From Lytechinus pictus (taxonomy: Eukaryota), in contig NC_087250.1 in NCBI RefSeq assembly GCF_037042905.1, positions 13,890,001 through 13,954,000 on the forward strand: a stretch of 64,000 bases of DNA, written 5' to 3'. The notes beneath the pieces are model-generated. The model made no database searches. It saw only the letters and a list, made by a program, of their open reading frames with translations, and was not told the DNA's origin. This document shows, in pieces, positions 4,532-39,300 of this stretch. Positions within the stretch are counted from its first letter, which is position 1, and every line of letters starts with the position of its first letter. The translations under genes and the position numbers were made by a program.

Positions 4532-4912
4532 CCCCTTTCATAAACCCAATTATGCGGATAATATCCGCATAATTTGGTTGTAAAATCGGAGCGGGACCAG
4601 AGTTATCCGCATTATTTCGATGCTGCAATTATCCGCATAATAGCGGCATCGGAACCAGATTTTGACTTTATGAACGCATTTCCAAAGTAATGTGGATAAT
4701 TGCCATGGATGCGGTCACAAAGGTCACCCTTTTCCAACACAACCCCATCGGAGGGGGCGTGTGCAGTTGCCATGATAATTATCCGCCTTTTTCAGGTTGG
4801 GCGCTCATAAAAAAATAGTGCGGATTATTTTTGGAGTTTGTGAATGCAATTTCTATTGAATTATCCGCATTACTCTTAGGCGGATAATTGGAGGATGGGT
4901 TTGTGAAAGGGG
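4532..4912. mobile_element. MITE flanked by TA
   Basis: ta|cccctttcataaaccca ... tgggtttgtgaaagggg|ta; internal atccgcat repeats. Confidence 0.75.
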
Positions 4913-7900: not shown

Positions 7901-8099
7901 TTGAACTTTTATACCAAGAAAGCAAGAATATAGAATCAATTTGAAAGAATTGGCCATGAGAAATGAGTGCAAACAGCACCTCCTTATCTTGTAGAGAGTA
8001 TGTGTAGCCACTATGGAATAATGTGAAATCGAATCATATTCTTGAGTGGTTTGCAACAAATAGCATCGTGTTTAATTTCCAGATTGAAAAGGTCACAAC

Positions 8100-8390
8100 T
8101 GAGAAGGGATGTTCACACTATACCTCAACCATGAATTATATACTCTGAAAAGAAAGTTTGAACATATATGTACAATAAGAAAAGCATGTTTACACTATAC
8201 CTAAACAATGAATTATATAATCGGAATAGAAAGTTTGAACATACACTGAGAGGGATGTTCACTTCTTGCCTAAACCATATATTATATACTCGGAAAAGAA
8301 AGTTTGAACATACACTGAAAAGAGATGTTCACACTATACCTACAAGTAAACCATGAATTATATACTGGAAAAGAAAGTTTGAACATACAT
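8100..8390. repeat. Degenerate ~60-70 bp tandem repeat
   Basis: gatgttcacacta...gaaagtttgaacata repeated about 4 times. Confidence 0.75.
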
Positions 8391-9264
8391 GTATTAGTGA
8401 GTACACCCCATGCAAAAGTTGTTCCACAATGCTGGTTTTGAATTAAACCTTCACAGAAAATGTAAAATGGACATTGTGTATTAATTCAAAAGAGGCACAA
8501 ACTAGTTACTCACACTTTAGGCTAATTATCCTATTAATTGCTGATTTATGAGAAAATGGTAGCAACAAAAGTGAGTACACTCTATTACTTTGAAATACAT
8601 GTATGATCATATTAGTACTTGTTATGGCAATATTTCAAGCACTTATTCCCAGAACGTTTTCCTTGTGAGGAGCCAACTCACTTTGCATCCTGGAATTCTT
8701 TGAATATCATTTCACCCCTCTATGATGGACATGTTTAATATAGTAGGCCATCTTGTCCTCCATTCCTGCATGACTTCATAATGATAGGTGTGCTTGAGAT
8801 GTGTTAAGGCCACCGCACTTGTTACGACTGGTTCACTGTCCGATTTGGGAACAAATCACATTTTTCTTTATTTCTGAAAATGTGAATGAAAAGTATCTAT
8901 TTGAGGTTCAAATTAACTGTAAAGAATATTGTGTCAAATTTAAAGAGGCACTGAAAACCAGTTATTCACACGTATGCTATTATCAAAATCGCTCATGTGA
9001 GGAAATCGTAGCAACAAAATTTGGATGATCGCAACTCTTTGGGCGAGATGAATACGGCCACCCCCATTCACGGGGACAAAACCAGATTTAAAACATGGGA
9101 TAAGTAGTTATCACTCATGCATATAAAAAGCAAATTTGATAGTGGGCGCAGAAGTTGCTTTGCAAATTATCCAACTCTCCCTGTATTGACTCTAGACATT
9201 AGTTTCTTGATGTGGATGTTGAAATCAAAGTTGACAATTTTTTGTCATTTTTTTTCTTGTTCAG

Positions 9265-9389
9265 GAAATGACACAACCTAGGATGTACCAGGAGCCAGAG
9301 GAAGCCAGACCTACATTATCAAGCAGCGAATTCTTAGAATTATTCAAAGAGATGTCAACAAGACCTGAAATCTATTTCCTACTTGTCAG
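9265..9389 (+). CDS. PLCL2: PLCL exon (EF-hand): [41 protein letters not shown](R)
   Basis: ttcag acceptor, gtgagt donor; [10 protein letters not shown] motif typical of PLCL. Confidence 0.92.
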
Positions 9390-12300
9390 GTGAGTTTTAG
9401 GAGAGGAGAAGGAGATAGATAGAGAGAGAGATGGAGAGATAGGAGAAATGGAGGAAGAGGGTGGGAGGGAGTTGCGGGAGGATGAAAAATACTTAATATA
9501 ATAATATTAATATAGGTATATTTACCCAGGGAAGCCACTTCAGTTCTGAAAACTGTTCTCCCAGTGGGCCCTGCTATTATTATTACCCCGGCTTTAGCTG
9601 GGCTGCCTAGGCGCTCAAAGCATTCATTCTTGGAATTATTCAAAGAATGTAAAAAAGACCTGGGCCCCGTCTTACAAGGAGTTACGATTGATCCAATCAA
9701 TTGTAATTCTATGGTAATCCATCAGTGTCATAATTTTTTCTACAGGAAATTTGCAAAATGTCCTTTGTAAACAAAGGAGAACACACCAAATTGTCAAGAA
9801 ATCAATGAATTTATGGATATACATTCGTATCTAGAACAAATTTTGAACAAACATACATTTTATATGTTTACTTTGCTGGCTTTCCATAGTTGCGATTGAT
9901 TGGATCAATCACAAATCTTTGCCCCTGGACCCTGTCTCACAAAGAGTTGCGATTGATCAGATAAACTATAACTATGGAAAGCCAGCAATGTCATCCTAAA
10001 AACTGCAAGTTTGTTTCAAATATTTTCTAGATATGATATTCATACATTCACTATTTTCTTGAAAATTCAGTGTGCTTCTCTTTGCTTTATACAAAGGACA
10101 TTGTGCAAATTTCCTGTAGAAAATATGATGACATCGATTGATTTCCGTACAGTTAAGATCGACCGGATCAGTTGTAATTCCTTGTAAGACGGGCCTGAAA
10201 TCTTTTTTCTTATTGCCGGGTAAGTTGATGTGTTGGAGAGTGTTTCAAAAAGTAACTAGTTGTTTTCACTGACTTATTTTTTTTCTCAGCCAATCAGATC
10301 CAAGGATTTGATGTAGCACATAACTGTTTTGGCCCAATGGATAGGTCTTCGCACTTTGAACCACAAGACCCGGGCTTCAAATCCCACCGCAGCACTTGCG
10401 TCCTTTGGCAAGGTGTAGTAAATGGGTACCCGGTAGGAAGGAATTCCTTGAATGTTGAGTGTCCGATCAGGGTAGATGTGCTAAAGCCGGAGTTATAGTA
10501 TGCAGTGCTTAATAGAAACATTTATATTAAGCATTATGTTGATGTTTCATATTATCATTATTATTAGTAGTAGTAGTAAACAGTCATTAAAATATGCTGA
10601 TTTATGCACTTAATTTTTTAAATAACAGGTGACGTTTCTGCGTCATATCTCAACCCATTCAGAATTAATGCTAGTATGGGATTTTGAGGCATGTTTAACT
10701 AGGGGATTAAATCACTTTAAACTTTTCTATAGAAATACATGTAGTTTCATTGATCCATTTGATCTATTTGTTAACAGGTACTCGAGTAGTGAATTTATGA
10801 CATTGGACGATCTCATGATATTCTTAGAAGCAGAACAAGGGGTAAGTTTGATGTAGCCAGAAGTCAGGTTGATGATTATGATGAAAGTCATGATGATGTT
10901 AGTTGTGATGACGATGATGATGATGGTGATGAGGATGATGATGATGATGATGGTGGTGATGATGATGATGATGGTGATCATGATAATGATGGTGATGATG
11001 ATGATGGTGTTGATTATGATGGTGATGATGATGAATGATGATGAATGATGATGATGTTGATGATAAAAGGGGAAGTTTTTCCTGAAGTTCGCCCTGACAA
11101 AAAGTAAATTGTAAAAATAGCAGAAAAATAATAAAAAATATTCCAGAAAGTTTGAGAAAAATCCATCAAAGAATAAAAAAGTTGTTAGAAATTGAAGTAT
11201 TTGATTTGTGACGTCATATGCGAGCGTATTCCTACATAGCGAATGATAAAACATCAATGAAATGTCATTTTCTGAGAAAATTGAAAATGGATTTTTCTTG
11301 GTACCTTTCGTATATCAATAGACAAATCATTTCACACCCGATCATGAATAAAAAACAAAAATAAGTCATCAGGAACCATTAATAAAATGAAATTTATGCA
11401 TTTTATATTACATAACATATGGGCAGCTGCTCGTTTATGACATCACAAATCCAAAACTTTAAATTCTAATTTCTTAATCTTTAACGGATTTTCCTCAAAC
11501 CCTTACCAATAATTTTTCTTATTTCTTCTGCTATTTTTACAAACTATTTTTCAGGGTCACCTTCCCCTTTGATTCACTGTTCTTTGATAGGGACACTTGT
11601 CTTCCAAACGAACTGTAAAAGCCAATTCAACCGACGGGCATTTATTCCCTGTACCTTCAAATCAGATTGAAGATTGAATTCAAACCTATTTCTCTGTCCA
11701 CCATTCAGCTTGGATGGTTTGCATGTTATTCAGCTGAAAGTCTCATCTTACATGCAGCTGGTAGTCGGGCTAGAGACCCAGTCACACGGATGAAACTGGT
11801 CCCATACCGACCAAAGCTAAAGCATTATATCCAATGACATACCATTGGTCGGTTTGGAGTCGGTGTTATCCGTGTGACTGGGGCACAAGGCTGACTGTAG
11901 CATAATATATCAAGTTATGAACCCAGTGAATCAGAATGATTTATTTCACAGTACATGTATAATGCATTTCTAATGAATCACAAATGAGATTTGTGATGAT
12001 AGTGTTATGATAGAGTAAATAAATATGTGGCAAATCTCACAGTATAGTGTAATTCTGTTCATCGCATGGGGTGTGCAGACCTGCCAACCAGTACGTTATA
12101 GCCGTATTTAGTACGTTTTTGCAACCAAAATACGGCAGTACGTTTTTTCTTTGAAAAATCCTTTTTTTGTATAAAAAACGTACACCAATATGGTTATTAG
12201 ATCAATGTAATTTCAGGTACAGTTACTTGTTTTTTTTTTCAATCATTTTGTTAAAACTAGGGTGAAGATATACACATGTTTTAATGTTTTTTTTTTCATC

Positions 12301-15300
12301 TGCAAGAGCAGTGCGCATTTTAGCTTGCATGCAGCTTGAGCGCCGCGATGAGTGAGTGTGCCAAGCATTTTATTATGAAATACTCCTTTTTGGGGAAAAA
12401 TACAGTTTTTTTTATCACAGAATACAGTTTTTCATTCCCAGGGGTTGGCAGGTTTGGGTGTGTGGTTTTGTGGTTGTGAGTGCCTCTATGGCAGCTCGGC
12501 TACAGCCAGGGTATATATCATACCAAATGTTATAAAGCGCAGTAGAGTATATTAACAAAGTAACTGCACTATATTTATGGTCCATATTATTAAGAATTTC
12601 ATAGTATATTAATAATTTGAGAATATTTTCAAGATAATTAGATTAATGATGATTAGAATACTGAAAAATATATAATATAAAAGGAACTTTAATTAGTCCC
12701 TCATTTAATACCAGAAACCCTTTTCATGTTTTTATTAGTATTCCTGACAGATATTGAAATATTTTATATGCCAACCATGATCACAATGATCATCAACATA
12801 CAAGTAAATTATGGTTAAGTGTCCTTAAAGATAATTGGCCAACAATAAACATAAAATAGACTGGCCCGTATTCTGAACTCGGGTTTAAATTAAACCCTGG
12901 TTTATACGTATTTGTGGTTTAACTATGGAGAGCCAATTGGGGCACAAATCCCCTACAGCACACATCCAATTTATTAACTCATTTGAGTATTTGACACTCA
13001 AATTATCCGTTATTGTCTGTGAATGATATGTGAAGTATTTTCCTTCATTATGAAAGCAAAAAGGAAAAAAATAGTAAACATAAGAAGAAATATATTATAT
13101 TTATAAAAAGGATTTTTAAATTGTTGACATCCCATGATTTTAGTACAGAGTTAGACTGTGGTCTATGTTAGACCCGACTTCAGAATACGGGCCACTGTGT
13201 CTATTATTAACATTGTACATGTAATTATTTTTGTTTGCTTCAGATGACTGGCGTAACGAAGGAAAAATGTCTGTCACTCATACAACGCTATGAAGTCTCT
13301 GAGGAGGGTCGTCAAAAGGGATACCTCGGCATTGACGGTATTTATCTTTTTTTTCATTCAAAACTATGAAACCCACCCTACTGAAGTGTTGAACTCAAAA
13401 TCAAGAAAATTAATCATAACTTTGATTTCTAGTCATTTATGAGATATATGTTGGTGTGTGATGAAGATTTATATTTGATTCTATGAAGATACATTAGGAA
13501 TATTGTGCAGGTGTAAAGATAAATGAATAGTTTATGGAATGCAAGAAATCTCCTGCTTTGTGAAATCAGTCTCCAAATTTTCTTGCACTAATGTTTATAC
13601 ATGTAGTTCATGCCTCTTCCATTTATCAAGTTGAGGGGGTGTTTCACATAGATTGATGTCTGACTAATGGCGCAGTAACATTTCTCCTACGGTTGCCGTC
13701 CGGCTAGTCGAAAACAGCCATTTTAATCTTTTTTCTACCAGCTACATGTACATATGAGTGGTTTGAATAAACATAGATAAAATGGCTGTTTTTGACTTGC
13801 CATATGGCGACTGTAGGGGAAATGTGACTGCAGCATTAATATCGCATTTAAATTGAACGTTTGAAGCGTTTATAAAGCGTTTAAGCATTTGGTATTTAAT
13901 CAACACTGCATCAGTACAGTCACATTCAGTTAATCCTTGAAGCATGACTTTCAGTCAGATTTTGATCGGATCAATCATAACTCTTTGTAAGTCGGGCCCA
14001 GAGTACAGTTTTTGTTTAGGAGTTTTGCTGCTATCTTTTAATCACATGTTTTATTTATTCAGTTTTCTTTGAAGCACTACGTGATTTGTTGATGATTTTA
14101 CTATAGGTTTTTATCATCAGAATTTGTTTTTTGTAGGTTTTACAAGCCATCTGTCTGATTCTCTCTTTGGGTTTTTGTTTCCTTTAATGCCTCACAGGCT
14201 TCGCGGGTGGGGGGGGGGGATCGCCACCTATTTGCCCTTATATCATATATTGTGTTTTTTGTCTCACCTGCATAGCAGAGTGAGACTATAGGCGCCGCTT
14301 TTCCGACGGCGGTGGCGGCGGCGACGGCGGCGGCGATGGCGGCGGCGGCGGCGGCGTCAACACCAAATCTTAACCTGAGGTTAAGTTTTTGAAATGACAG
14401 CATAACTTAGAAAGTATATGGACCTAGTTCATGAAACTTGGCCATAAGGTTAATCAAGTATTACTGAACATCCTGCCTGAGTTTCATGTCACATGACCAA
14501 GGTCAAAGGTCATTTAGGGTCAATGAACTTAGACCATGTTGGGGGAATCAACATCAAAATCTTAACCTAAGGTTAAGTTTTTGAAATGTCATCATAACTT
14601 AGAAAATATATGGACCTAGTTCATGAAACTTATACATAAGGTTAATCAAGTATCACTGAACATCCTGCATGAGTTTCACATCACATGACCAAGGTCAAAT
14701 GTCATTTAGGGTCAATGAACTTTGGCCGAATTGGGGGTATCTGTTGAATTACCATCATAACTTTGAAAGTTTATGGATCTGATTCATGAAACTTGGACAT
14801 AATAGTAATCAAGTATTACTGAACATCCTGTGCAAGTTTCAGGTCACATGATCAAGGTCAAAGGTCATTTAGGGTCAATGAACTTTGGCCAAATTGGGGT
14901 ATTTGTTGAATTACAGCCATAAATTTGAAAGTGTGTTGGTCTAGTTCATAAAACTTGGACATAATAGTAATCAAGTATCACTGAACATCCTGTGCGAGTT
15001 TCAGGTCACATGATCAAGGTCAAAGGTCATGTAAGGTCATAGAACTTTGGCCACGTTGGGGGTATTTGTTGAATTGCCATCATATCTCTATAAGTGTATT
15101 GGTCTAGTTCATAAAACGTGGAAATAAGAGTAACCAAGTATCACTGAACATTTTGTGCGAGTTATAGTAGTTTTCAAAATCAGCACTGCTGCTATATTGA
15201 ATCGCGTGATGCAGGTGAGACGGCCAGAGGCATTCCACTTGTTTTTCTCCATTTTTCTTTCTATTCTATTGTATGTGAATGTGCCATTTTTAATGTGCAA

Positions 15301-18300
15301 ATAGAGACGATATATATACACCATCATAATGTTATTTTTTTTTGTAGGTTTTACAAGCTATCTATTATCATCAGAATGTGATATTTTTGACAATCTTCAA
15401 CGGAGAGTTTGTCAGGACATGACCCAATCGTTATCTCACTACTTCATTGCTGCTTCTCATAATACGTGAGTATTTAAAGGGCAATCACACATGTTATGGC
15501 GGGGGGGGGGGGGAGGGTACTCGAATTATAATATGATACCTATGTGCCGCACCAAAGTCGGGGGTCGGGGGCTCTGGAACTAAATATTGGTCTCAAAACG
15601 GGGTCTCCGGAATGGCTCTGATCAACGATTGCTAAAAATGCAATGCTGTGAAAAAGGGGGTCTCCAGAACCCATAGATCGTAGGCATAATTGGTAGCGGC
15701 TGTGTAAAAAAACCTGCGTGCGTCTTGCTACATTCATTTCGGGCAAGCTAGCTGCAGGCGCAGGGGAGCTTCAGGGGCCAGTTAAAGTGGGCAATCCCTC
15801 GTATATACCTAATAGCCCTGCGGGCAGGGGAAGGGTGGTGACTTCCCCCTCTACATATACCTGTACTGCTGCAGTGTTTCGTAAGTCATTATTTTTTCAA
15901 GCCTTGCATGTAATTTTAGACTGAATTTGGGACGTCTGGAAACAGGGATAAAAAATTGATGTTACTGTCTGTGTAAGTGACACTTTTAAATTGTATTATT
16001 TATGTTTGTATGACAGTCAAATGATGAAAATGATATTAATGATGGTTATGATAATGATGACAATGACAATAACAATATATGAATGAAGATTTATATATAT
16101 GTTTTCATTTTTTAATGTTGTAGGTATCTAACTGAGGACCAATTGAAAGGACCATCAAGTGTAGCAGCGTATGTGTCAGCATTACAGAAAGGATGCAGAT
16201 GGGTGGAATGTAAGGTTTAGCCCCCGAGTCATGTCAGAATTTTTTTGTTCCAGAATTCACCGGTGTTGCGCCGGCCGGAATCTGGTGTCCCGATAAATGA
16301 ATTCGCGAACGGGGAAGCACTTAAGCACTTTCTTGGAAACAGATGCAGGGTTGACTGGCGGGATGGGAAAAAACTTTTTCCAAAGTTTGCTGAAAATTTC
16401 AAGATTTAAATTATCACATAAATATAATAATTAGAGATTAATATAGCGCACAAATCTGTCGGTAATGACAATCAAGGCGCACAATTAACATAATATGCAT
16501 GAAATGCCTATCTGTTTTGCATATTATTTTTATAAATACTACTAAATAATGACGAATACCACATTCTTTCTTCGCTCTGAATATCTGATTAAAAAAAAAA
16601 ATTCAGTTGATAGTAGGGAACGTTCAAGCACTTGATCAAGGTAGTTGTCATTGGTAGTAGTGTGGGGCACTCAGAGACATTGTATTAAGCGCTTTACAAA
16701 TGTTGCAAATTAAAATTCATTGAATGCCGAAGCACTAGATGAAGGTCGTCATGCCAAATTCAGGGTACTTGTAGCACTTTCAAGCATAATGCAAAATGGT
16801 GCATATTGTTATTGTTAAATATTGTTTTGTGTGTTTTATTTCAGTGGATGTATGGGATGGAGGCAATGATGAACCTATAATCTATCACGGCCATACACTC
16901 ACATCTAAAATACTCTTCAAATCAGCTATAGAAGCGATTAATCAACATGCGTTCGAAACATCAGAGTGAGTATTCTGTCTAGTTTGGTCTACTTCCGAGA
17001 CATTGATGAAATCCATTTGGTATCATGTTCGCCACCTAATCGTGAGCTTCAAGATCAACACCAAGACCGAAATTAAAATCACAATTTTCCCCAACCCTGG
17101 GGGTTGGCGTTAGTGAATGGGCAAATTACATGTAGATCGTCAACACCAGCTGTAATGCTTGCTTGTATGTTTGCGACAATCAACAGACCTCGGCTGAGGG
17201 AACATGGTCTGTTGATTGTTGCAAACATACATGTGACAGTAATGCACGCTGCAAACTTGGTTACGCATAGTGCTGGTGTTATCGGTGAACATGCGATGGA
17301 CAAAATCATATGGATCCAGAATTGCATGATGAATGGATCAAAAATTGCACGGATGATGATGTCATTGTAAAATGGGCTGAATGATCGATATCAAACAACC
17401 AATCGAATGACAATGACCATTCTAGACGTCATGTAACATAGAACAATGGTCTATCATATCAATTACCTGTCAAGCTGCATTGTCAGCACGTACATGTAGC
17501 TGGTTTCATCTTCAAACCATCTCTTGTGGGGACATCATGGTCAAGTGGTTATGACTCTTGTCTTCCAATCTGAGGGACGTGGGTTCGAATCCCAGCCATG
17601 GCATGTTTTCCTTCAGCAAGAAAGTTACCCAAATTGCGCTGCACTCAACCCAGGTGTGGTGAATGAATACCCATTAGAAGGGCCTAAATGAGAACAGATT
17701 TCAGAACTGAACGGGGTACCCCGTGTAAATATACCGTTATTATTATTATTGATATGATCTCTTTAGGTATTCAGTGATTGTATCGATTGAGAACCACTGC
17801 AGCATTGATCAACAGAGAGTAATGGCCCACTATATCAAGTCTGTGTTTGGTAACAAGCTTCATAGTGAGACGATAGATGATTTGATCTCTTTTACTACAT
17901 TCTTTTGATCTCTTACTAGGTATCCAGTGATTGTATCGATTGAGAACCATTGCAGCGTTGATCAACAGAGAGTAATGGCCCATTATATCAAGTCTGTGTT
18001 TGGTGACAAGCTTCACAATGAGCGTATCAAGGTGATTTCATCTCTGTACTACATTCATTCGATCTCTTACTAGGTTTCCAGTGATTGTATCGATTGAGAA
18101 CCATTGCAGCGTTGATCAACAGAGAGTAATGGCCCATTATATCAAGTCTGTGTTTGGTGACAAGCTTCACAATGAGCGTATCAAGGTGATTTCATCTCCT
18201 TCTACATTTATTCGATCTCTTACTAGGTTTCCAGTGATTGTATCGATTGAGAACCATTGCAGCGTTGATCAACAGAGAGTAATGGCCCATTATATCAAGT

Positions 18301-27300: not shown

Positions 27301-30300
27301 GGCCTTGTTAATAATTGGTTGATTTTATCTAGTAACTATGCACGCTCTAAAAGGGATCAAATAGTAGTAGTCAACCGGTCATAGAAAATACATCCTGGCG
27401 AAAGTAGTGTATTCTGCATGGATAAAAAGATATGTAGAGCGGTGCTCAAAAGTTAGTGAACCCCACCAGAAAATGAATATTTGAAGTGTTCAAATTCTGC
27501 CATATTTTAGATATTTTATTGTAAACTCAGATGATAAAATATTTCACTCAATAAAGTTTGTTTACTCAGATGATGAAATATTACACTTTTTAATAATAAA
27601 GTTTGTTTCTCTGGGCTCGCCAAACCTTGTATTATTGTTGTCTACATTCAATACTCTGCATGAAGGAGTGCATTTTGTGGTGGGGATCACTGACTTTTGA
27701 GCACAACTGTATGTGTTTAATTATGTGACATTTCTTTGACTTCTGGCATATCAAGTGTTTTGGTACGAGGTATGTAATGTAACAGTCAACCTATGCAATA
27801 TGATCAGATACCTCTACACTTCTGGTATATACGTGGGCAAATGGAATTCCTTTTGTATTGACATATGTGCTGGTACATACACATATACTTAGACTCAAAT
27901 GGAAGAAGTCAAGAGAGAGACCTTTTATATATATATATTTTAGCAATTTCTGGATCAAATTCGCATAAATGTATTGTAATTCTGCAATATGAACTCGATT
28001 CATTTCAGCTGCACCTATAGTTATTAAAATAACTGAAGCCCCATTCCTTTCATTTTACTATCCTTTCTGTTAAATACAGGACGTTCCTTTTCTATTTAAT
28101 CTACATGTAAGCCTAACCTCTCTTATCAAATCAGTAATATTTGGCAATGCATGATAATGCAGGAAATCTAAAGGTATCACAGGTCATAAATGTTTATTAA
28201 AAATATTTTTCTGCTGGTATTTATGATGTTGTTTTTGTCGCAGCCAGAAGGTTTACAAACGTAGGATAATTGGATCAGTGATCATAATAATAATAATAAT
28301 AATGTAACTTATGAAGTGCCAAAATTCACTCAGTAGAGAGCCCAAGGATATAAGGATTTAAAGGAAAAGTTCACGCTGATAAATTGGTCTTGATAGAAGC
28401 AGAAAAATGGAAGAAATATTTGGTGGGGGTTTGATGAATGTTTGTCTAAAGAATGATAATTTATGTCTTTAAAAGTTTGATTATGTGACGTCACAGATGA
28501 GCAGCTCCTCCTTATATTGTATGATATTGATTTTTTTAAAAGGCAGTTTTCCAAAAGAATTTAAAATTGTTTTATTTGTGGGTTAACCCTAAAAGGCCCG
28601 GGGGGGGGGGGGGGGGGCGGAATCCGCCTCCCTCAACATATTTCGCGATTAATCCGTCGCGCGAAATTTTTTCAACGCGCCGCTCGCTGACTTTTTACTT
28701 TCAAGTCTCACGCAACTTTTGAGACCAAATTTGCGATGCCCGGGTACCGGTTAGGAATTTATGCAACATTATGTAAGTGCATGTCAGACCCAAAATTTCT
28801 CAAAAACGTGAATTCATGTACAAATCCAATGCAAATTGTGTATTTAGCCAAAATTTATTAATGTATCATTATTTCTACTTTTATTGATAAAAAATAATTA
28901 ATTTTGTCTTGTTTATGATCAGAATTAAGTCTGCAACAATTTCCATAAAAAACAAAAACAAAGAAATACATAAGAAATTAAAAAAACAATAAAATACATA
29001 AGAAAAAAATTGCGATACCAATTTTTTTTATGTACGTTTGATCAGAATCCTACAAAGAGTCTGTGAATAAAAAATTTGCAATTTTGGGGCCATAGTAAGT
29101 TAATTAGAGCAAATGTTTTATTTCATGCATAAATTAGCATAATTAATTCATTAAAAAAAAATCTTATTTTTTCAGAAAAATTAATCATACAGCCTTGTAG
29201 ATTTTATTGCACACTACCACTGTGCAAATTTTCGCGGCGCCCTTGCGATCGACGGCCGAGATCTCAGGGGGGGGGGGGGCGGAATCCCCCACCCTCCTCG
29301 GCTGTGAGATGGGTACAAATAATCCGGCTCTTTTAGGTTTAATATATCATCAGACACATCATTCCAGTTACCCTTCTTGTATAAAAGAATTGTCTTAAGT
29401 TTGTTCTGATCCCATTCCGCATAAGGGAGACCTTTGAAGGACCATTGAAAGACCAAACATTGGCGAGGTCTTAAAGCAGTCTCCAAGATCACTGAAATTT
29501 GTCATCTCTGGAATGGTTCTGAAAGACCCCTCAAAGAACTCTGAAAGACTGATTGATAATTCTTGTCTTACTGGGCTTAGACTAGTCCTATAGAGATCTT
29601 TCAATGGTCTTTCAGAGATCTTTTATGCAACAAGTGATCTTTCAGTATTTTTTCCATGGACTTTCCTGGTCTTTAAAGATCTTTCAATGAATCCTTTAAT
29701 GATCTCTCAGTGATCTCCACAAAAATCTTTAGAGACTGTTTAAACAGGGAAGTGTTATAGACTTCCCTGGTTTAAAGATCATGGAAAGACTAATAAGAAC
29801 TTTGAAAGATCATCAAGAGACTGCTGAAAGACCATCAAAAGACCAGTTTCCTGAAAGGCCGCTGATAGACTGTTTTGAACTGTTTCAAAAAGTTTTGGAA
29901 ATCATGAAGGCCACGAAGAACACTGACAGATCAATCAGGAATTATGAAAGACCTCAGATACTTTTGAAAGTTCATTGAAAGACCTTTGAAAGATCAAGCA
30001 AGTTTCATGGTCTTACAGACAGTGGTCTTTCAGATGTCTTGTCTTCTGTGGAATGGGGGTTTTCATCATGGTCCATTGAAAAGATGGAATGTATGGGATT
30101 GTTATTATATGATATGTGAGGAGCAGCTCGCATATGACATCAAAATTAAAAACTTTATTCAACCTCTCTTAGTGGGGAATTTTCATAAAACCTTCACCAA
30201 TATTTTTCTCCAATATTTCTGCTACCACCAACTAAAAAGAAAAAACAATTTCTATTTTTCCTCCTTCTCTCCTACAGTTAACATGACCAATTTATTTGAC

Positions 30301-33300
30301 GTAAAAAAAATATTTTTCCTAATCTAAATTTTGATTTTTTTTTTTCAAGTTTGAGTTCAGTTTTTGATTGCATGTGAATGAATTCAAGCATGTAGACCAG
30401 TGTGGGTTTTAAATCATTGAAAAATCAAACAAGCATGACTTTGAATAATTATTTTCAAATGATGTTACTCTTAAATGGGAATACAGTATTATGAGGTTGG
30501 TACATACATTATATATGTCATGAATATTGAAGAAAAAAGCTGAAAGCTAGCATTCCGTAGACGACCAAACTTCAGGTTTAATCTTTAGTTAAACTTTGGT
30601 TAAATTATCAAAATATTCTTCTATAACTGGAGATAAAGTTTTATCATGCTTCTTTCTTTTTGGAGAATTAAAGTAGAAAACTGGCTTTCTACCATTTACA
30701 TGTTTTTTTTAATTTGTGTTATTAATATTATTATCATTATATTCACATCATTGATGAAAAGGAGAGAAGAATTTCATCAGATACGTCAATATGGAATACA
30801 TAGTAGGAACAAAGCATAAACAATTAAAAAAATGTTTGAGGTACAATCTCTCTCGACGGATTTTTTTTTGCCACAAATTTCCAGTTGCTTGTATCTTAAG
30901 ATTATTTTTTATCCAACCATTCATTTGTAAATTGATTAGATTATAATATATTCATTCATAAGGAAAACAATATCTGTGTATTGTTTAGGTGTTGTATGAA
31001 GGGTTTAGTTTGATGTGATGTAGGAGGAAAAAATCTTTTATACCTGTAATCATTGGGTCTGAAAAGTTACTCAATATTTGGAAACTCTAGTTTAAATGCT
31101 CCCCAGGGAGTGGAGAAAGTGAATACGTTGTGTTCAGACCATATGCCATACAAAAACTTCATCAAGATAATTGTACAGTGTTACAAGAAAGTTATGATAT
31201 TTTGAAATGTCACTTATTTTTCACAAAATATGCACAATTCAGTGAGAGGGCCGATGATGTCCCTTACTATATTTGTTTTTTATTGTTTAAATTATACAAC
31301 TTTTCAAATTTTACAGGTCTATTTGACAATAAGGACCAACTTGACTGAAGCATGAAATGTTAAAATAGTGGTAATTTCACTTGGTCATTGAGAAATGAAA
31401 CCTTCGTTTCACAGGGCAATGAGGAGAAAATTAGAATGTTTGATTTGATACACTACAACAGAAATAGTGAGTGGGTGACATCATCAGTCCTCAGTTTTGT
31501 AAAACTAAGGAAAATTTGAAATATGATAACTTCCTTCTTTTTCATTTGATGTTGATGAAATTGTCAATTTGCTTGTTGGATTTTTCTCTTTTTTATTCAA
31601 ATCAACTTTTTGTTGGGGTGGACTTGTCCTTTAATAAGTGTAACTCATTGTGGTAAAGGGCCACGGTCACACTATAGAATTAATTGTTTATATTATCGAA
31701 CCTTTGCCCTGTAAATTTTCTGTGTATCCAGGGCCCGGTCTCACGCTACAAGTAATAATGATTATATTTTCAGATGATGGAGGGAAAAAGAGGCCATTAA
31801 TAAGGGAGTTATAGGACCTGGTTTGACAAATCATATTCTTTGTATTACAGGATGGATTGAAGAAGAGGCCATTAATAAGAGAGTTATCAGACCTGGTTAC
31901 ACTATGCAAATCAATTCGCTTTCCAGGGTTCAACGAAGCAAGACAGAATCGTAAGTAGTTCTCTTTTTTTCACTTTGCATTTTAGGATGACATGTAATTT
32001 TAAAGATAAATACCAGTTGTGGTAACGATTCATAATGAGTTCGAACAGAATCCAATAAAATTTCCACCCAAGTATTTGTTTGTATAAATAAAAAATTGTG
32101 TGCCAATTGACTCTGGAAAACAATGTGTATTTGCTGAGAAATTAGCAAAATAAGCACAGAATTCCTTAAAATGTCAGGTATTTTTCCAAGCAATATTAAT
32201 ACACTGTCCCACATATGCCTTTTTGTGTTAGTTATCATTGGAATTATCGGTTTTCAGCTAATATTTCAAGATTTCACAAAGTATTTCTGAAGGGGTCTTA
32301 GTTTTTAACGTGCTTTGGGTGAAATGATGCATCCAAAATGCACGGCTGGAAAATTGTGTGTTCAAAGTAAAAAAAATAGCATGTGACTTGCGTAAGCACT
32401 GCCTATTGGCTTCATCATTGGACCCATTTTATATTAGTGTTACATAATCTACATGCACATGTTCTTTGGTATATTGGTAGGTATAACTGAAATGGTAAAT
32501 TAATTTTGTTGTATTTGTTTTGTCTTAGAGAGATCCTAGGAGTTATGTTTGTTCTTGGAGAATACAACACGATCATACGAGTGCATATTGTAGATGTAAA
32601 CCTCGATAGATAATTAATTTTGTTGTGTGTGTTTTTGAAAGTGGTACGAGAAGATATTTTGCATGGATTTAAATGTAAATTGATTGTAGATTATGTTGTG
32701 TTTGTTTCTTGTTTCAGAGAGGTACTGGGAGTTATGTTCATTCGTGGAGAACACAGCAGAGAAGTTTGCCAACATGTGTCCTGAGGACTTTGTGAGTCAC
32801 AACAAGAGTTTCCTATCCAGGGTGTATCCTAACGCAAACAGGGTAGATTCAACCAACCTCAACCCGCAGGATATGTGGAATGTTGGATGTCAAATAGGTG
32901 AGTAGGAACAATATTGTAATACTAAACATAATTTCACTCGAAAGGTTCATCTGATTGGTGTGTAGACATGAGAAAACATTCTTTATTCCTTAATCACAAA
33001 AACTTACCTGTTTTTCGGTAAGATTCTTCATGCTGCATCAGCAATAGCGCCAGCTATGAGGGTCTGACGAAGCTTGCTGCCTAGCTAGCGAACGCTTACC
33101 AAAAAACAGGCATATTTTTGCGATTGTGGAATAAAGTACTTTTTCTCATGTTGCCGTGGTTATCCATTGTTTTAAATTAATGAGTCCACTCTTCAAACAG
33201 TTGACTCACGAATAAAATAGCATATCTAACCATGGTAACAGGCGTCAATTTGGCGCACTGTGAAAAAAGCGCGCATCAGCATCAGCATTGGACATTTTTT

Positions 33301-36300
33301 ATACACGCGTCTGATACACGGTAAATTAAGCGTAATTTATACAGGAAATCTGCATAAACCATGGATTCAACCGTGGGTTTTCAAAACCACCTTTGTGAAT
33401 TCGGGCCATTTTGTTTAAATCTTTTAATCAACCCCTTCATGACCATGAAGTTGTCAGCATAATCAGCTGGCGAGAAGAGAATTGAGATGATTTTTTAGAC
33501 ACAGATATTTTGAAAGTGTCTTCACAATTCATTTTCCTTCCTTGGTGTTTATGTTTTAGTCCAAATGAACATTAAAATACAACCCACATTAAAGTTCTTT
33601 TTTTTTTATAAGCCAGACCTCTGAAATTTAACCAATGTCTATAATACTGCTCTTCTTACATTGGTTTTATTAGGTGTCTTTATATTTGGTAAACTGCTGA
33701 TTTGTCTATTGCCAACTTGTTCACTCATCACATGGTATACCTTCATTTAGTCTAATGCCATTCCGTCCATCAACATTTCATCTAACAACCGTTTGGTCCA
33801 ATAACAATTTGGTCCAATAATCACTTCGTCTAATCCCCAGTTCGTCTATGACCATTTTGCCTAATTTTCTTTTCATTCATTTCGCCCAATCAACTTTTTT
33901 CCAATTAGACCAAATGGTTTATGGACTACATGGCTATTGGACCAACTGGTTATTAGACGAAATGGCAATAAGAACGTGTGGATAGTAGACGAATTAATGA
34001 TAGACCAAATGATAGTAGACAAGTTGGTAATGAGATGAATTAGCATTAGACCACTTGGAAATAAACCTTTATATTTCACTTCATGAAAAAGAAATTTGGG
34101 CGTTGCCTTTGAATGTGAAAGTGTGCATATAATTAGATGTTCATATATTTTGTTGTTTTCAGTGGCTCTAAATTACCAGACGCCAGGATTAATGATTGAT
34201 CTCTACGATGGAAAGTTTCAGATGAACGGCAGCTGTGGATATGTATTGAAACCAGCTATCATGAGAGAAGGTGAGCAGAATTCGGTGGATTCACAATACA
34301 GTACGTGATCTATCGGTCGCAGTGGACAGGCCGAAATTCGCAATGCCTTGTGGGAAAAAGTCGACATTTGTTGCACACCCCAGTACTAAAGTGCATGTAC
34401 ATGTATGCGATTATTCAGCATTGGCCGATGGGCTTGAGTGGATATACATGTATGCTGTATACCAGGGTCCATCATTATGTTAGTATAAGAAAAAAGATAT
34501 TTTTTTTCAGATTGAAAAAATGGAGTTACTTTTGAATAAACAATAATCGTTTTATAAATTTACAGCCAAAAAGCCTTAGTTTTTAACTCAAACCTTTCAT
34601 GTTAAGTTTTCAAAGCCTCCATATATCTTACCGTAGCATATCGCCTCAAATTTTGATTGGTATTTTCAGGGATAGCTTATTTTTGACAAAACTCATTTGA
34701 TGTGATCCTTGGAGTAATATCTTTAATCTCTAATGTTGTTAAAATTCAGAGATTATTTTTGAACAAACCAATTTATAAGAGTCTCACTCCAAATCTTGAA
34801 TCTTATTTTTCAGAGATTGCTTATTTCCGACCGAACTCATTTGACTTGATTCCGGGAGTATCGCCTCAGATTCTTCACATCAAGATCATCAGTGGCCAAC
34901 AGTTCCCTAAACCAAGAGGATCAGGATCTAAAGGAGATGTGAGTCTTTCTTCTTATCATTCTTGAACAGCGTAGGAATTACATGAGGGCGACGCTCGATT
35001 TCGCCCCCAAGACAGCCCAAATCACCCCTAAAATTCCCCTGAAATGCATGCTTTGGGGCGACCATTCTTTCTAGAGTCTCTCCAAGATCTGTCGTATCCC
35101 TAAAAAGGACCATGAAAGGATTTCATGACATAACATAAATATTCCACACATATGCGATTTGTGGAATATTTTCCCAAACTCTTGGAATATTTCTGGTATT
35201 CCATTCTGAGCCATCCAATATAATTTAATTATTTGTTTTATTTTTTAGGTGATAGATCCATACATCTCTTCAGAAATCTTTAGCATACCAGCTTTCTGTA
35301 GAGAGGAATAGATGATAATAAACATTATTTGTTTTATTTTGTTTAGGTGATAGATCCATACATCTCCGTAGAGATCTTTGGCATACCAGCTGACTATAGA
35401 GAGGAATAGATGATAATAAACATTATTTGTTTTATTTTGTTTAGGTGATAGATCCATACATCTCCGTAGAGATCTTTGGCATACCAGCCGACTGTAGAGA
35501 GGAATAGATGATAATAAACATTATTTGTTTTATTTTGTTTAGGTGATAGATCCATACATCTCCGTAGAGATCTTTGGCATACCAGCCGACTGCAGAGAGG
35601 AACGCACCAAGACAGTACCTCATAATGGTAAAGTAGTGCTCATAATTCGGATGACCAACTATATAAAAAAAGTATGCATCAAATGATAAATTCCAGACTG
35701 TATCATTTCATGTGCGCAGGCTATATACATCAGGGTTCCGTCTTACAAAGAGTTGCAATTGATCCAATCAAGCGTAACTCTATGGAAATCCATCGGTGTC
35801 ATAATTTTTTCTACAGGAAATTTGCACAATGTCCTTTGTAAACAAAGAGAAGCACAGTGAATTTTCAAGAAAACAATGAATGCATGAAAATACATCATAG
35901 AAAATATTTTGATCAAACATGTATTTTAGATGTTGTCATTGCTGGCATTCCATAGTTGTGATTGATTGGATCAATCACAACTCTTTGTAATACGGGGCCT
36001 TGGGTCCCGTCTTACAAAGATTTGCGATTGATCTGATGAACATCAACCCTATGGAATTCCATCAACAAAAAATTTACACAATGTTCTATGTAAATAAAGA
36101 GGAGCATACAATGTAGAAGATTATTTAAAAAAAAGATGAATGTATGAATATGCATCATTTTGAACAAACCTGCATTTTAGTGCTGGCTATGCTGGCTTTA
36201 CTGGCATTTCATGTTTGTGGTTTATCAGATCAGTTGCAACTGGGCAATTCCATAGAATATGTACGTCCGACCCCCTATATGTGGGACCTTCATAAATGTT

Positions 36301-39300
36301 CTGTCTCTGATTTCTTGTTCTTTTGCCAGTCTGTAATGCTCTCAAATGACCATGACTTGGTCAGTTTATGAAGTGAAGTAAAACTTGAGAAAATTGGGGG
36401 TCGGATGTACAAAAAGGTCGATTATTTTATGGAATTGCCCAACTCTTTGTAAGACAGGGCCCTGGTGCCCATGTAGCCATATTTAACTGCAATTACATTG
36501 GCCATATTGATCCATGGATTCATATTTGTTCGTCTAGCGGGTTCTCCTCTCTCCTGCATTCAATTCTTGCAATTTAATCATTGTTTCTGCTCATTTTAGC
36601 ACGTCCTTAAACTATTATTTATGGGGGCGTTGTGGTCTAGTGGTTAAGACTCTTGTCTTTCAATCTGAAGGACGTGGGTTCGATTCCAAGCCATGGCGTG
36701 TTTTCCTTCAGCGAGTAATTTACCAACATTGTGCTGCACTCGACCCAGGTGAGGTGAATGGGTACCAGCAGGAAGTAATTCCTCAAGAAGCTGTGTGCAC
36801 CGGAGTAATATAGGAGCGCCTTGAGCACCTAGCAAGGTGGATATGTGCGCTATACAAATCTTATATTATTATTTTATTTATAATTGACCAATAGTAGGGA
36901 GATACTGGTTGACAGTGTAGTTACAGAATTAAGATATGTATAATCGATTTCATTGCAACCACTTAATCAGATTCAAATTAATGATACTCTTATGTTACTT
37001 TTATTCTACTATTAGGTAACTCTTATTTCTCTCTTTTACGTTACTTTTATTTCACTCTTACAATGTATGTTATTACTCTTATTTTATTCTGAAGTACTTA
37101 ACTTTTTTTTTCTCTTAGGTTACAACCCAATCTTTGACGAGAGCTTTGAGTTTTCTGTCAATCTTCCAGAGTTAGCCTTGGTGCGCTTCGTGGTCCTGGA
37201 TGATGACTTCATCGGTGACGAGTTCATTGGTCAATATACCATACCATTTGAATGCTTACAACCAGGTATGTTTATTGGTCAATATACCATACCATCTGAA
37301 TGATCCTATATTAATAAACCTCAATCAACCAAGTAGAGATTAGAAAATAATAGTACCGAGCAGGATTCTCCAGTTTTCTTGCTTGAATTTATTGACTCGA
37401 CACCTTATAATTCAGATTCAGATTCATTTATTTCACACCTAAAATACAAAAATACATAAATACAAATAAAAATCTTATACGACAGAACAGATATTGACAA
37501 GTATTTGCATAGTCCCATTTGCACATCCATTTCGTTTTGTTTGCAATTTTAATTACTCCACTGAATAAATTCCTGCCAGGTACAATTTACCTCACCTGCA
37601 TTGAGTGCAGCACAATGTTGATCCATTTTTTTTCCACACTTTGCTCCCTGTAAAGATTTAGTGTACTTGTGAATAGGGTACCAGCTGATCTTATTTCCTG
37701 TATGATTTTGGCAGAAAGGGTTCTCACATAATAATGATAATTATAATAATAATGATAATAATAGTAATTATTGGATTTATATAGCGCTTTTTCCAGAGGA
37801 CACAAAGTGGTGTTGATGGCATAAAAAAGTTCAGGTTTAAGGTTGTGTAAGTGTACTTTGAGATGTTTTTTGAAGAGATCAAGAGAAGAGAGGTTTCGAA
37901 GAGATGGAGGGAGTTTGTTCCAAAGACAGGGGGCAAGAGATTGAAAGGAGTTGAAACCGGCCTGTTTTCTGGATTTTGGAATGACACAGGAAGGAGCAGC
38001 TGCAGAACAAAGAAAGTATGTAGATCTTTGTTGCTGAAATAATGAAGAAATGTTAGAAGGAAGTGTGGTTGACAGAGATTTAAAGGTTTGAACAAGTATT
38101 TGACATGTATATCAAGGCCTCTGTATGGATGTTTTTACTCACTTTATAATGCAGGATATCGTCATATAACCCTACTATCAAACACCGGAGAACCATTGAA
38201 ACCTGCATCTCTCTTTGTTCATGTAGCAGTAACAAACAAGAGAGGAGGAGGGGTAAGTCTTTATAATCATTCATTTATTGTAGATATTGCTTTGATTTTA
38301 TGATCCTTCATACATCCTTTGACCTCATGGATTCACTCATGAACTCAGTTCAGTGCATTATTTGTATTATAAAACTCCTAAGAATGTTCTGTAATCTGAT
38401 TGGTCCAAATCGGATCACATGATATTCAGCGAATTGCACTATTGCATCCAAAATGCACTATCCTGCACTCTGACGTCAAAGTGCAGGATAGTGCGAGGTC
38501 TGGAATTATCTAGAAATATCTAGAATTTAGATCAAATATAGCATTCGGGGCAACTCAGTAACATTGGGGAGGAGGGGGTTGTATAAAACAAACAATGCAC
38601 TCATTCTTGTGCATAGAGGACCTAAATAATGAACTCAGTGCTCGACTCGCCAAATGGATATACCGCACTCGGTCCTGCGGGCCTCGGTGCGGTATATCCA
38701 TTTGGCGAGTCGAGCACAGAGTTCATTATTTGGCCCTGCATGCACACGCTTACGTGCATTATTCGTAAATTATATCTCTATTCAAGAAGTTTAATTTGAT
38801 AAATTACTATTTAGAGTTTTAATACAATGTATCCCTGTTGTTACTGTTTCTTTTAATAGTGGCTTTCCCCTTGGGACTGGCAGGTGAGATCAGGGGCAGG
38901 TTGCACAAAAACATATCAAACCTAATTCTCAAATGCATGCTACTGATTGGTTAAAAATCAAGTTCTGTTTGATTTTTCTTGAGTTGTGTTCAGTTGGAAC
39001 TGGTACTACATGAGGGGGGTGGGGGTGTTTCACAAAGATTTAAGTATAGCTTAAAATCATGCCTATTGCTGACGCGCACATGATTGTGTAACGCACAATT
39101 TTATTGATAAAGACGCGCATCCTCTTGGCATAAATTGACCAATGCGGTGATACCGTTTTTTCGTCACACGACTGAACATTTAAGTGCGACTCTAGGTCAT
39201 ACTTAACTCTTTGTGGAACACCCCCAGGATCCTTGTATGATAAATATTTTTTTTTATTTATCAGCACTAGTCTCAAGGTAATCTTGTAAGCTATTTGATT

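What the first reader, a model, noticed from the sequence alone, without database searches (positions are those of the whole stretch)
9265..37302. Gene-wide pattern: about 10 of 22 exons are shadowed by partial copies of their own boundary
Seen: acceptor-side copies lie upstream of exons 15348, 20665 (x19), 31851, 32718, 34814 and 35543 (x3). Donor-side or 3'-end copies lie downstream of exons 9265, 22572, 23700 and 37119. Ages range from near-identical to heavily decayed. In every case the intact exon is the innermost copy, as expected if only boundary-spanning duplications that leave a full exon survive. Inference: either a very high local tandem-duplication rate or a process biased to exon edges, supplying raw material for new splice sites and intron growth. 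Caveat: purely intronic local duplications are also common here, and exon copies are easier to spot by eye.
Basis: partly seen in the sequence, partly recalled or inferred. Interest (0 to 1): 0.75.

Follow-up and report, generated by a model that had tools for sequence, protein, structure and literature searches.

The report
Exon-edge echoes in urchin PLC-like gene
In one sea-urchin gene, about nine of 22 exons have a partial copy of their own edge lying in the neighbouring intron; this is a known kind of tolerated local duplication, but it is unusually concentrated in this gene.

Summary
The window holds the Lytechinus pictus gene for 'inactive phospholipase C-like protein 2'. I mapped 22 exons, 21 of them exactly from the annotated protein.

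- Eight exons (starts 9265, 20665, 23700, 31851, 32718, 34814, 35543, 37119) have a same-strand partial copy within 1.5 kb. Each beats all 200 shuffles.
- No exon has such a copy on the opposite strand (0 of 22).
- Exon 15348 is moderately supported and exon 22572 is weak.
- Two cases are minisatellites: 152 bp with 19 extra copies, and 98 bp with 3 extra copies. Every extra copy keeps the acceptor site.

- 'Intact exon innermost' follows from the geometry of a tandem duplication across a junction in a working gene.
- Counted by bases, exon edges are no richer in local repeats than introns. Counted by events, they are.
- In 49 exons of other genes of the same genome, only 1 has such a copy (P = 2e-4). 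This is a peculiarity of the gene, not a genome-wide rule.
- A kinesin gene and a kinase gene show the same kind of array. This scan had already noted the kinase gene on other DNA (e1-7787412).

**Closest known:** human F7-type junction-spanning minisatellites. No junction-targeted mechanism is shown.

The parts
9265..48698 (+). Gene for L. pictus 'inactive phospholipase C-like protein 2'; 22 exons inside the window (upstream PH-domain exons, if any, lie beyond the window start)
   Evidence: P0001 is 100% identical. Alternative exon 23700-23801 is supported by P0002.
9626..9662 (+). Copy of exon-1 interior/3' part (9330-9367), 296 nt downstream. It is flanked by transposon-like repeats, and its last ~10 nt overlap one of them.
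   Evidence: 34/38 identical. Exon-only score 54, reached by 0 of 200 shuffles. Repeat intervals.
14115..14152 (+). Copy of the exon-4 acceptor region (26 nt intron + 16 nt exon, 15322-15363). It keeps TTTTTTGTAG|GT. The spacer holds a transposon-borne array.
   Evidence: 35/38 identical. The exon part alone scores 31, which is marginal. The array 14229-15248 matches elsewhere in the genome sample.
17748..20664 (+). 19 extra units of a 152-bp minisatellite. Each unit is 38 nt of the intron-6 3' end plus the first 114 nt of exon 7, and the 20th unit is the real exon start (20665).
   Evidence: TRF 152 bp x 19.8, 94% matches. All 20 units keep AG|GT. Found at this locus only. 19 PI-PLC-X matches.
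23077..23126 (+). Weak copy of the exon-8 donor region (22641-22685: 27 nt exon + 18 nt intron), 436 nt downstream
   Evidence: 41/45 with 4 gap columns, score 48. The exon part alone equals the null.
23582..23693 (+). 61-nt tandem duplication of the polypyrimidine region, ending 6 nt before the acceptor of alternative exon 23700.
   Evidence: Score 47; alignment.
23857..23896 (+). Copy of the last 39 nt of alternative exon 23700-23801, 96 nt downstream. The donor is lost; faint similarity continues into the intron part.
   Evidence: 36/38 identical. Exon-only score 54. Residual similarity reached by 8 of 500 shuffles.
31728..31840 (+). One clear copy (31766-31840, unit 75-78 nt) and one older remnant of the exon-9 acceptor region. 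The copy keeps TTTTCAG and carries an in-frame TAG.
   Evidence: 46/56 identical at offset 75. Merged event 31748-31838 ~ 31826-31917. Sequence, alignment. Exon-only score 67.
32503..32569 (+). Copy of the exon-10 acceptor region (28 nt intron + 41 nt exon), 187 nt upstream. It keeps the AG.
   Evidence: 55/67 identical. No similarity beyond the patch. A contig of a second organism is collinear over 32515-32761.
34647..34716 (+). Copy of the exon-12 acceptor region (24 nt intron + 47 nt exon), 143 nt upstream. It keeps TTTTCAG.
   Evidence: 55/70 identical. Exon-only score 42.
35228..35542 (+). 3 extra units of a 98-bp minisatellite. Each unit is 38 nt of the intron-12 3' end plus the first 60 nt of exon 13.
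   Evidence: TRF 98 bp x 3.8, 95% matches. All 4 units keep TTTAG|GTGATA. The nearest unit differs at 1 position over about 103 nt.
37270..37302 (+). Copy of exon-14 positions 37222-37254, starting 5 nt after the donor. It has no donor of its own.
   Evidence: 31/33 identical. Sequence. Contigs of a second organism are collinear over 37107-37352 without gaps.

Best explanation
These are ordinary short tandem duplications (about 50-190 bp) that happened to straddle exon-intron junctions of one gene.

1. After such a duplication, one copy stays joined to the rest of the exon and is still spliced. The other copy becomes intron. This is why the partial copy is always on the outside.
2. On the acceptor side, the real site stays usable only if the duplicated unit brings its own branch site, pyrimidine tract and AG. 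This fits the 24-38 nt of intron carried by all six acceptor-side units.
3. Two seeds grew into minisatellites by unequal exchange.
4. The intronic copies then decay. They stay recognisable longer than intron-intron duplicates because their exonic partner is held constant by selection.

Shown: the copies, their geometry, the retained acceptors, the array structure and the intron growth.

Inferred: the duplication mechanism, the neutrality of the copies, and that splicing uses only the innermost site.

Not explained: why this gene has so many.
For: - **Geometry.** In all ten cases the copy lies on the intron side and on the same strand. 0 of 22 exons has an opposite-strand copy.
- **Acceptors kept.** 20 of 20 E7 units and 4 of 4 E13 units keep the acceptor AG. 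So do the E4, E9, E10 and E12 copies.
- **Array growth.** The E7 array has unit subtypes and a multi-unit block repeated at an offset of 2131 nt (92.5% identity). That is expected from unequal exchange.
- **Direction of copying.** The E7 unit occurs nowhere else in the 812-Mb assembly: all 13 matches lie in this array. The direction is therefore exon to array, not a dispersed satellite.
- **Not transposons.** None of the copies lies in stretches that match elsewhere in the genome sample, apart from the edge of the E1 copy.
- **Signs of decay.** The E9 copy has an in-frame TAG. The E8b and E14 copies have lost the donor. Variants among E7 units are 13 synonymous to 22 non-synonymous, against 19.5% synonymous expected for random changes, so there is no clear constraint.
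- **Age.** Contigs of a second organism, about 9-14% diverged, run collinear through the E10 and E14 copies. These two copies are old and are not assembly artefacts.
- **Same kind elsewhere in this genome.** A kinesin exon on C9 has 4 upstream units of about 36-42 nt intron plus about 109 nt exon. A kinase gene on C6 has one donor-side and one acceptor-side array.
- **Known in human genes.** F7, IFI6 (6-16), CBS, LMNB2 and PDGF are named in passages of PMC1557585.
Against: - **The concentration is not predicted by this account.** 8 of 22 exons here against 1 of 49 in other genes gives Fisher P = 2e-4. The nearest sampled gene, about 200 kb away, has 0 of 5.
- **A higher local rate does not close the gap.** The window has 14 non-TE clusters in 64 kb against 14 in 181 kb in the sample, about 2.8-fold denser. 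That predicts only about 1.3-3 exon copies, depending on whether 1 or 2 of the sampled exons count as bearing a copy.
- **No purely intronic counterpart.** Inside the gene, the strict scan finds no non-TE cluster that is purely intronic, against 5 on exons (plus E4).
- **Some copies are not simple head-to-tail pairs.** The E10, E12, E1 and E14 copies are 33-70-nt islands with no residual similarity in the rest of a presumed tandem unit. They need later insertions or deletions, or a different origin such as short templated insertions.
- **Splicing is not shown.** That splicing ignores the extra sites rests on the annotated protein and its orthologues only.
Confidence: 0.6

Rival explanations
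1. A mutational process aimed at splice junctions acts in some genes and creates the copies. Candidates are breaks or template switches at pyrimidine tracts or exon edges, or cDNA made from the lariat-plus-3'-exon splicing intermediate, which would end at the branch point.
For: - There is an event-wise excess at exon edges in this gene.
- Three further non-TE intronic duplications lie within about 150 nt of an exon: 23582-23693, 32471-32635 and 41383-41474.
- The upstream ends of the acceptor-side units cluster at branch-site distance. They lie 24-38 nt from the AG here, about 36-42 nt in the kinesin array and about 20-26 nt in the kinase array.
- Several copies are short islands and not full tandem units.
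- At least two genes carry copies at several junctions.
Against: - There is no excess in the sample of other genes: 1 of 49 exons, and 1 of 14 non-TE clusters on a known exon.
- The clustering of unit ends follows from a viability threshold (the real acceptor needs its own branch site) combined with a preference for short duplications. For the four units with exact ends, my own rough estimate of the joint chance (not from a call) is only about 0.02. One dynein case has 58 nt.
- Arrays in perfect head-to-tail register are what DNA-level duplication gives. An RNA-templated route would need insertion at exactly the right base.
Confidence: 0.15
2. Chance and ascertainment. The genome is rich in minisatellites, a few genes out of tens of thousands collect many junction copies by luck, and readers flag exactly those genes.
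For: - Base-wise density at exons equals that in introns.
- The gene was picked because of the pattern.
- The window is about 2.8-fold richer in local duplications than the sample.
Against: - 8 of 22 against 1 of 49 gives P = 2e-4.
- With a per-exon rate of 2-5%, even tripled, 8 or more of 22 is expected in well under 2% of genes.
- Yet this scan met two such genes among 17 annotated windows of this genome, and I confirmed two arrays in the second gene.
Confidence: 0.15
3. The copies are kept by selection as decoy or regulatory splice sites, for example to tune splicing or to feed nonsense-mediated decay.
For: - All acceptor-side copies keep the pyrimidine tract and AG.
- Three E7 units end in AAG|GTGATT and could be spliced in as frame-shifting 112-nt pseudo-exons.
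- The E10 and E14 copies are shared with a second organism.
Against: - There is no constraint signal among the E7 units (13 synonymous to 22 non-synonymous).
- The old copies are about 20% diverged from their exons, as expected for neutral intron.
- Retention of the AG in three old copies has a chance of about 0.26 (my estimate).
- The donor-side copies lost their donors.
Confidence: 0.05
4. Assembly artefact: stutter or haplotype-switch duplications at conserved anchors in a very heterozygous genome.
For: - Reads in the E7 array were skipped as multi-mapping, so the array length is not checked independently.
- The nearest E13 unit is about 99% identical to the real exon start.
Against: - Most copies are 78-95% identical to their exons and carry stops or lost sites, which is far beyond allelic divergence in exons.
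- The E10 and E14 copies stand in contigs of another organism.
- The E7 array has ordered subtypes, not identical stutter.
Confidence: 0.03

Closest known systems
Junction-spanning minisatellites of human genes: F7 intron 7 (37 bp), IFI6/6-16 intron 2, CBS intron 13, LMNB2, PDGF intron 4 (passages of PMC1557585 read)
   Same: These are tandem units whose terminal member spans an exon-intron boundary, so an authentic splice site is followed by identical pseudo-sites in the intron. Normally only the authentic site, or that site and its nearest neighbours, is used. The unit sizes (37-100 bp) and copy numbers (5-25) are comparable.
   Different: - All the cases named in that paper reiterate the donor site. 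Here the two arrays, and 6 of the 10 copies, reiterate the acceptor, with up to 20 competing 3' splice sites.
- Here about nine junctions of one gene are affected, and most are decayed two-copy relics and not live arrays.
- Copy-number polymorphism and splice-site use were not tested here.
Intron creation or extension by tandem genomic duplication (review PMC3443670, passages read; Hellsten et al. 2011 and Gao & Lynch 2009 seen only as cited there; Gao & Lynch is not held)
   Same: An internal tandem duplication that includes splice signals leaves the coding sequence unchanged, because the extra material is spliced out. The intron grows.
   Different: Those cases create a new intron from a duplicated exonic AGGT. 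Here an existing junction is duplicated and an existing intron is lengthened.
Internal tandem repeats at exon-intron boundaries of human segmental-duplication genes (PMC2812944, passages read)
   Same: Variable tandem repeats at exon-intron boundaries change gene structure. After manual inspection, that paper reports 27 intron modifications.
   Different: Those were found by comparing young paralogues, and many alter transcripts. Here a single-copy gene keeps an unchanged protein.
Tandem exon duplication and mutually exclusive exons (Letunic, Copley & Bork 2002; recalled, not read here)
   Same: Exon-like copies lie in the intron next to the parent exon.
   Different: Those are whole exons with both splice sites and open frames. 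Here every copy is partial and lacks the far splice site.

Membership tests
Junction-spanning minisatellite (F7 IVS7 type) | Head-to-tail tandem array of a unit of tens to about 100+ bp | tested here: met
   E7: 152 bp x 19.8, 94% matches. E13: 98 bp x 3.8, 95% matches. The other eight cases are two-copy relics, not arrays.
Junction-spanning minisatellite (F7 IVS7 type) | The terminal unit spans an exon-intron boundary, so the splice site is reiterated in the intron | tested here: met
   Exon starts 20665 and 35543 come from the exact protein map. 20 of 20 and 4 of 4 units carry AG|GT at the homologous place. The acceptor side is affected here, whereas the named human cases are donor-side.
Junction-spanning minisatellite (F7 IVS7 type) | Pseudo-sites normally silent; the authentic site is used | tested here: inconclusive
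   The annotated protein and its two orthologues use the innermost site. RNA reads inside the array were skipped as multi-mapping, and splice joints were not among the rows shown.
Junction-spanning minisatellite (F7 IVS7 type) | Copy number varies between individuals (VNTR) | not tested
   No usable depth in the array in any of the 4 runs laid.
Intron growth by tandem genomic duplication | Duplicated segment carries splice signals, coding sequence unchanged, extra copy lies in the intron | tested here: met
   The spliced model gives P0001 exactly. 2917 of 3699 nt of intron 6 and 315 of 604 nt of intron 12 are copies.
Tandem whole-exon duplication / mutually exclusive exons | Complete exon copy with both splice sites and an open frame | tested here: not met
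   Copies cover 16-114 nt of one exon end only. The E9 copy has an in-frame stop.
Transposon or dispersed satellite | Copies elsewhere in the genome | tested here: not met
   All matches to the E7 unit lie in this array. The copies lie outside stretches that match the 0.22-Mb genome sample. That is only a lower-bound filter.
Assembly or haplotype-duplication artefact | Near-identical copies absent from independent data | tested here: not met
   Identities are 78-95%. The E10 and E14 copies are collinear in contigs of a second organism. The arrays themselves are not independently checked.

The most novel reading that the evidence does not exclude
A subset of L. pictus genes is subject to a junction-directed duplication process. 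The copied patch starts at about the branch point and ends a few tens of bases into the exon. That would be expected if a splicing intermediate, or a break tied to splice-site chromatin or sequence, templates the extra copy. Such genes would then collect echoes at many junctions and grow their introns from their own exon edges.
Probability: 0.12. Interest if true: 0.8.

Novelty: new variant of a known kind. Interest (0 to 1): 0.45.

Why it matters
**If the concentration is real and recurs in other genes**
- It gives a natural series of junction duplications of graded age in one gene.
- It shows directly that introns can grow from copies of their own boundaries. Intron 6 is 79% such copies.
- It offers a natural experiment in 3' splice-site choice: 20 near-identical acceptors in a row, with the last one used.
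- It provides material to test whether duplication breakpoints are shaped by splicing requirements or by a junction-linked mutational process.

**If it is chance**
- It is still a caution for gene prediction. The 19 extra units each score as PI-PLC-X domain exons.

Tried and rejected
- **Whole-genome file.** It was not available, so no true genome-wide test could be run.
- **Planned sample of 141 ten-kb stretches (277 exon hits).** The sample is therefore small: 49 exons, from the conserved motor, dynein and SNF2 families, and mostly from contigs C1 and C2.
- **RNA evidence.** No RNA holder was listed for the stretch. Raw reads of one RNA run were laid, but 88% of what was laid ran on into unlike sequence, which I take to be transposon matches. 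The array bins had about zero depth because multi-mapping reads are skipped. No exon-exon joint was among the rows shown. Use of the extra splice sites is therefore untested.
- **Residual homology around the E10, E12, E1, E14 and E4 copies.** I searched both possible registers of a simple tandem unit and found none.
- **Base-coverage tile test.** It shows no enrichment.
- **Queries of exon +-100 nt.** This design was rejected because it swallows copies that lie within 100 nt of the exon.
- **Second gene in the window.** I looked for one to serve as an internal control. ORFs in 1-9264 and 48700-64000 look like repeats only.
- **Regional explanation.** The nearest sampled gene, 200 kb away, has 0 of 5 exons with a copy.
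- **The 14357-15163 'intronic array'.** It is part of an interspersed repeat and not a local duplication.
- **Literature.** Searches for genome-wide reports of junction-spanning repeats, and for sea-urchin cases, found only the human examples and general intron-gain papers. Gao & Lynch 2009 is not held.

Full report
**What the window is**

A 60-residue translation of exon 7 is 100% identical over the aligned 93% of the query to the 794-aa Lytechinus pictus protein 'inactive phospholipase C-like protein 2' (P0001). A spliced model of 21 exons with GT-AG borders reproduces P0001 letter for letter.

It encodes the 34 residues that S. purpuratus isoform X2 (P0002) has between exons 8 and 9. The first exon has an acceptor at 9265. 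In Diadema the protein continues upstream with a PH domain (P0003), and none of that part matches inside the window. The window is G000:C6:13890001-13954000 of an 812-Mb assembly.

**The observation**

All ten claimed copies are found at the stated places by unbiased self-comparison (blastn; ungapped diagonal scan; gapped local alignment).

Two are live minisatellites.
- *Array upstream of exon 7.* It spans 17748-20778 with a 152-bp unit made of 38 nt of intron 3' end plus the first 114 nt of exon 7. There are 20 units including the real one, and adjacent units are about 94% identical.
- *Array upstream of exon 13.* It spans 35228-35602 with a 98-bp unit made of 38 nt of intron plus the first 60 nt of exon 13. 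There are 4 units, and the nearest is about 99% identical.
- All 20 and all 4 units keep AG|GT at the acceptor position.

The others are two-copy relics. Exact coordinates and identities are given under 'parts'.

The cleanest chance test used each exon alone as query against its own +-1500-nt flanks.
- On the same strand, 8 of 22 exons score 42-208.
- E4 scores 31, with 0 of 200 shuffles reaching it.
- E8 scores 21, which is the null level. Its match reaches 48 only when 18 nt of intron are included.
- On the opposite strand the best score among all 22 exons is 28. The best shuffle score is 39.

So 8 copies are strong, 1 is moderate and 1 is weak.

It is a 61-nt tandem duplication ending 6 nt before the acceptor of exon 23700.

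None of the copies is a transposon, apart from the edge of the E1 copy.
- They lie outside stretches that match elsewhere in the window or in 0.22 Mb of other genome sequence.
- The E7 unit matches only this array in the whole assembly.

**Is it more than the intronic background?**

This depends on how one counts.

*By bases, no.* 38 of 169 exon-overlapping 80-nt tiles (22.5%) have a local same-strand match of score 36 or more, against 336 of 1762 intron tiles (19.1%). The intron figure is inflated by the exon-derived arrays themselves and by transposon pairs.

*By events, yes.*
- A strict scan gives 22 clusters in the window, of which 14 are not transposon-related.
- Five of those 14 lie on exons (E7, E10, E12, E13, E14). 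E4 is merged with a transposon array. None is purely intronic inside the gene.
- Random placement predicts 5-8% on exons, giving P = 4e-4 to 3e-3.
- If exon-anchored copies are allowed a twofold longer detectable life, because only one partner decays, P = 0.008 to 0.06.
- At least 34% of intron bases are interspersed repeats, against only 13.5% within 100 nt of exons. This further shrinks the target for old intronic duplicates.

The within-gene excess is therefore real but partly a matter of preservation.

**Is it a property of the genome?**

I used Pfam searches of the window's own assembly to get exon-level matches of four families: myosin head, kinesin, dynein heavy chain and SNF2. They gave 69 + 126 + 29 + 61 = 285 rows. 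I dropped 8 rows that had many internal stops or were very weak.

Results in the sample:
- In the same exon-only test, 1 of 41 exons on contigs C1 and C2 has a same-strand copy, and none has an opposite-strand copy. The one case is a dynein exon, 51/63 identical, 163 nt upstream.
- On the window's own chromosome, 0 of 8 exons have a copy. These include 5 exons of a kinesin gene only about 200 kb away.
- A gapped event scan added at most one further candidate. Otherwise it found only trinucleotide microsatellites that abut exons.
- Comparing 8 of 22 with 1 of 49 gives P = 2e-4. Comparing 10 of 22 with 2 of 49 gives P = 6e-5.
- In the sample, 1 of 14 non-transposon clusters lies on a known exon hit, which is about the chance level. 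The cluster density is 14 per 181 kb, against 14 per 64 kb in the window.

This gene stands out.

**The pattern does recur**

- The kinesin search itself showed one exon on C9 preceded by four partial copies. The unit is 145-151 bp, made of about 36-42 nt of intron plus about 109 nt of exon.
After mapping the L. pictus protein P0007, I confirmed two arrays there:
  - a donor-side 93-bp array after exon 929-1024 of L024;
  - an acceptor-side 87-bp array before exon 9399-9560.
- At the level a domain model can see, only 2 real exons carry arrays: kinesin on C9 and exon 7 here. This is out of roughly 300 exon matches in five families, counting the 17 PI-PLC-X matches in six other PLC loci.

**How it most likely works**

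A tandem duplication whose unit spans a junction leaves one copy contiguous with the exon and puts the other into the intron. The 'innermost intact exon' rule therefore needs no extra explanation.

For an acceptor-side event, the real acceptor is now preceded only by the intron part of the unit. That part must contain a branch site and a pyrimidine tract. If short duplications are commoner than long ones, surviving units should carry just over that minimum. The six units here carry 24-38 nt. For E4, E10 and E12 these are lower bounds.

The E7 array has subtypes and a repeated multi-unit block, which fits growth by unequal exchange.

Decay looks neutral.
- The E9 copy has an in-frame stop.
- The E8b and E14 copies have lost their donors.
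- Variants among E7 units are 13 synonymous to 22 non-synonymous.

Contigs of a second organism, about 9-14% diverged, run straight through the E10 and E14 copies, so those two are old.

The consequence for gene structure is direct. 79% of intron 6 and 52% of intron 12 are copies of their own 3' boundary.

**What stays open**

- Why this gene has so many copies. They are also confined to its first 15 exons: 9 of 15 against 0 of 7, P = 0.017.
- Why several copies are isolated 33-70-nt patches without residual homology around them.
- Whether any extra acceptor is used. Three E7 units end in AAG|GTGATT and would make frame-shifting 112-nt pseudo-exons.
- A junction-linked mutational process is not excluded, but nothing here requires it.

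**Comparison with what is known**

- *Closest described kind.* This is the minisatellite whose first unit spans an exon-intron boundary: human F7 intron 7, IFI6/6-16, CBS, LMNB2 and PDGF (passages of PMC1557585). Those cases reiterate donor sites. Here acceptor sites dominate and many junctions of one gene are hit.
- *Intron growth by tandem duplication* is an accepted route (review PMC3443670, passages).
- *Boundary repeats that remodel human paralogues* are described in PMC2812944 (passages).
- My searches found no report of a gene with many junction echoes, or of acceptor-side arrays. The library lacks most subscription journals, so this is weak evidence of absence.

**Verdict**

- This is a new variant of a known kind, of moderate interest.
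- The decisive step is a genome-wide, annotation-based, age-stratified count.

Noticed in passing
window 22232-24297 (direct repeats 22261-22340 and 24325-24404): A joint that skips 2064 nt is seen in the RNA run (36 reads) and in contigs of all three other runs. The skipped part holds exon 8 and alternative exon 23700. It may be a mapping effect of a repeated element (the repeat also matches 41917-41957) or a deletion allele. Unresolved.
   Followed up: no
window 10866-11064; L009 6206-6680; L005 5481-5841: Long trinucleotide microsatellites sit right next to splice sites. (TGA)n lies 25 nt after the exon-2 donor here, (ATC)n directly follows a kinesin exon, and (TAC)n lies about 20 nt before a myosin exon.
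   Followed up: partly
L023 4442-5147 (G000:C9:19767706-19768411): A kinesin motor exon is preceded by four partial copies of its acceptor region and first ~109 nt, and each copy scores as a kinesin domain hit.
   Followed up: yes
L019 5018-5080 vs 5181-5243: A dynein heavy-chain exon has a decayed partial copy (51/63) 163 nt upstream in its intron. It is the only such case among 49 sampled exons.
   Followed up: yes
window 20779: The assembly has G, while all reads and contigs of the four runs laid have A (7 of 7 RNA reads). The site is the first base after the end of the 152-bp array homology.
   Followed up: no
window 49793-52229: Two blocks of a 53-bp minisatellite (19 and 11.5 copies, about 90% identity) lie just downstream of the gene. 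They were not matched elsewhere in the sample.
   Followed up: no
window 786-1785 and 1937-2949: A 1-kb tandem duplication at 92% identity lies upstream of exon 1.
   Followed up: no
window 38366-38600: A ~235-nt element has at least 40 copies at 89-95% identity across the assembly, so it is a young high-copy short interspersed repeat. A different ~270-nt family recurs at 2976, 9656, 9925, 24457, 25943, 27022, 35727 and 36002.
   Followed up: no
window 23761-23850 in organism B: One contig of the second organism fits this stretch twice (record 11 of run X5). The repeat arrangement after alternative exon 23700 therefore differs between the two organisms.
   Followed up: no
L024 3207-8111: The large kinase-gene exon translates to only 94% identity with the L. 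pictus RefSeq protein P0007. This suggests high polymorphism or a different haplotype.
   Followed up: no
window 23700-23801: This alternative 102-nt exon is conserved with S. purpuratus isoform X2 but is absent from the L. pictus model P0001.
   Followed up: partly
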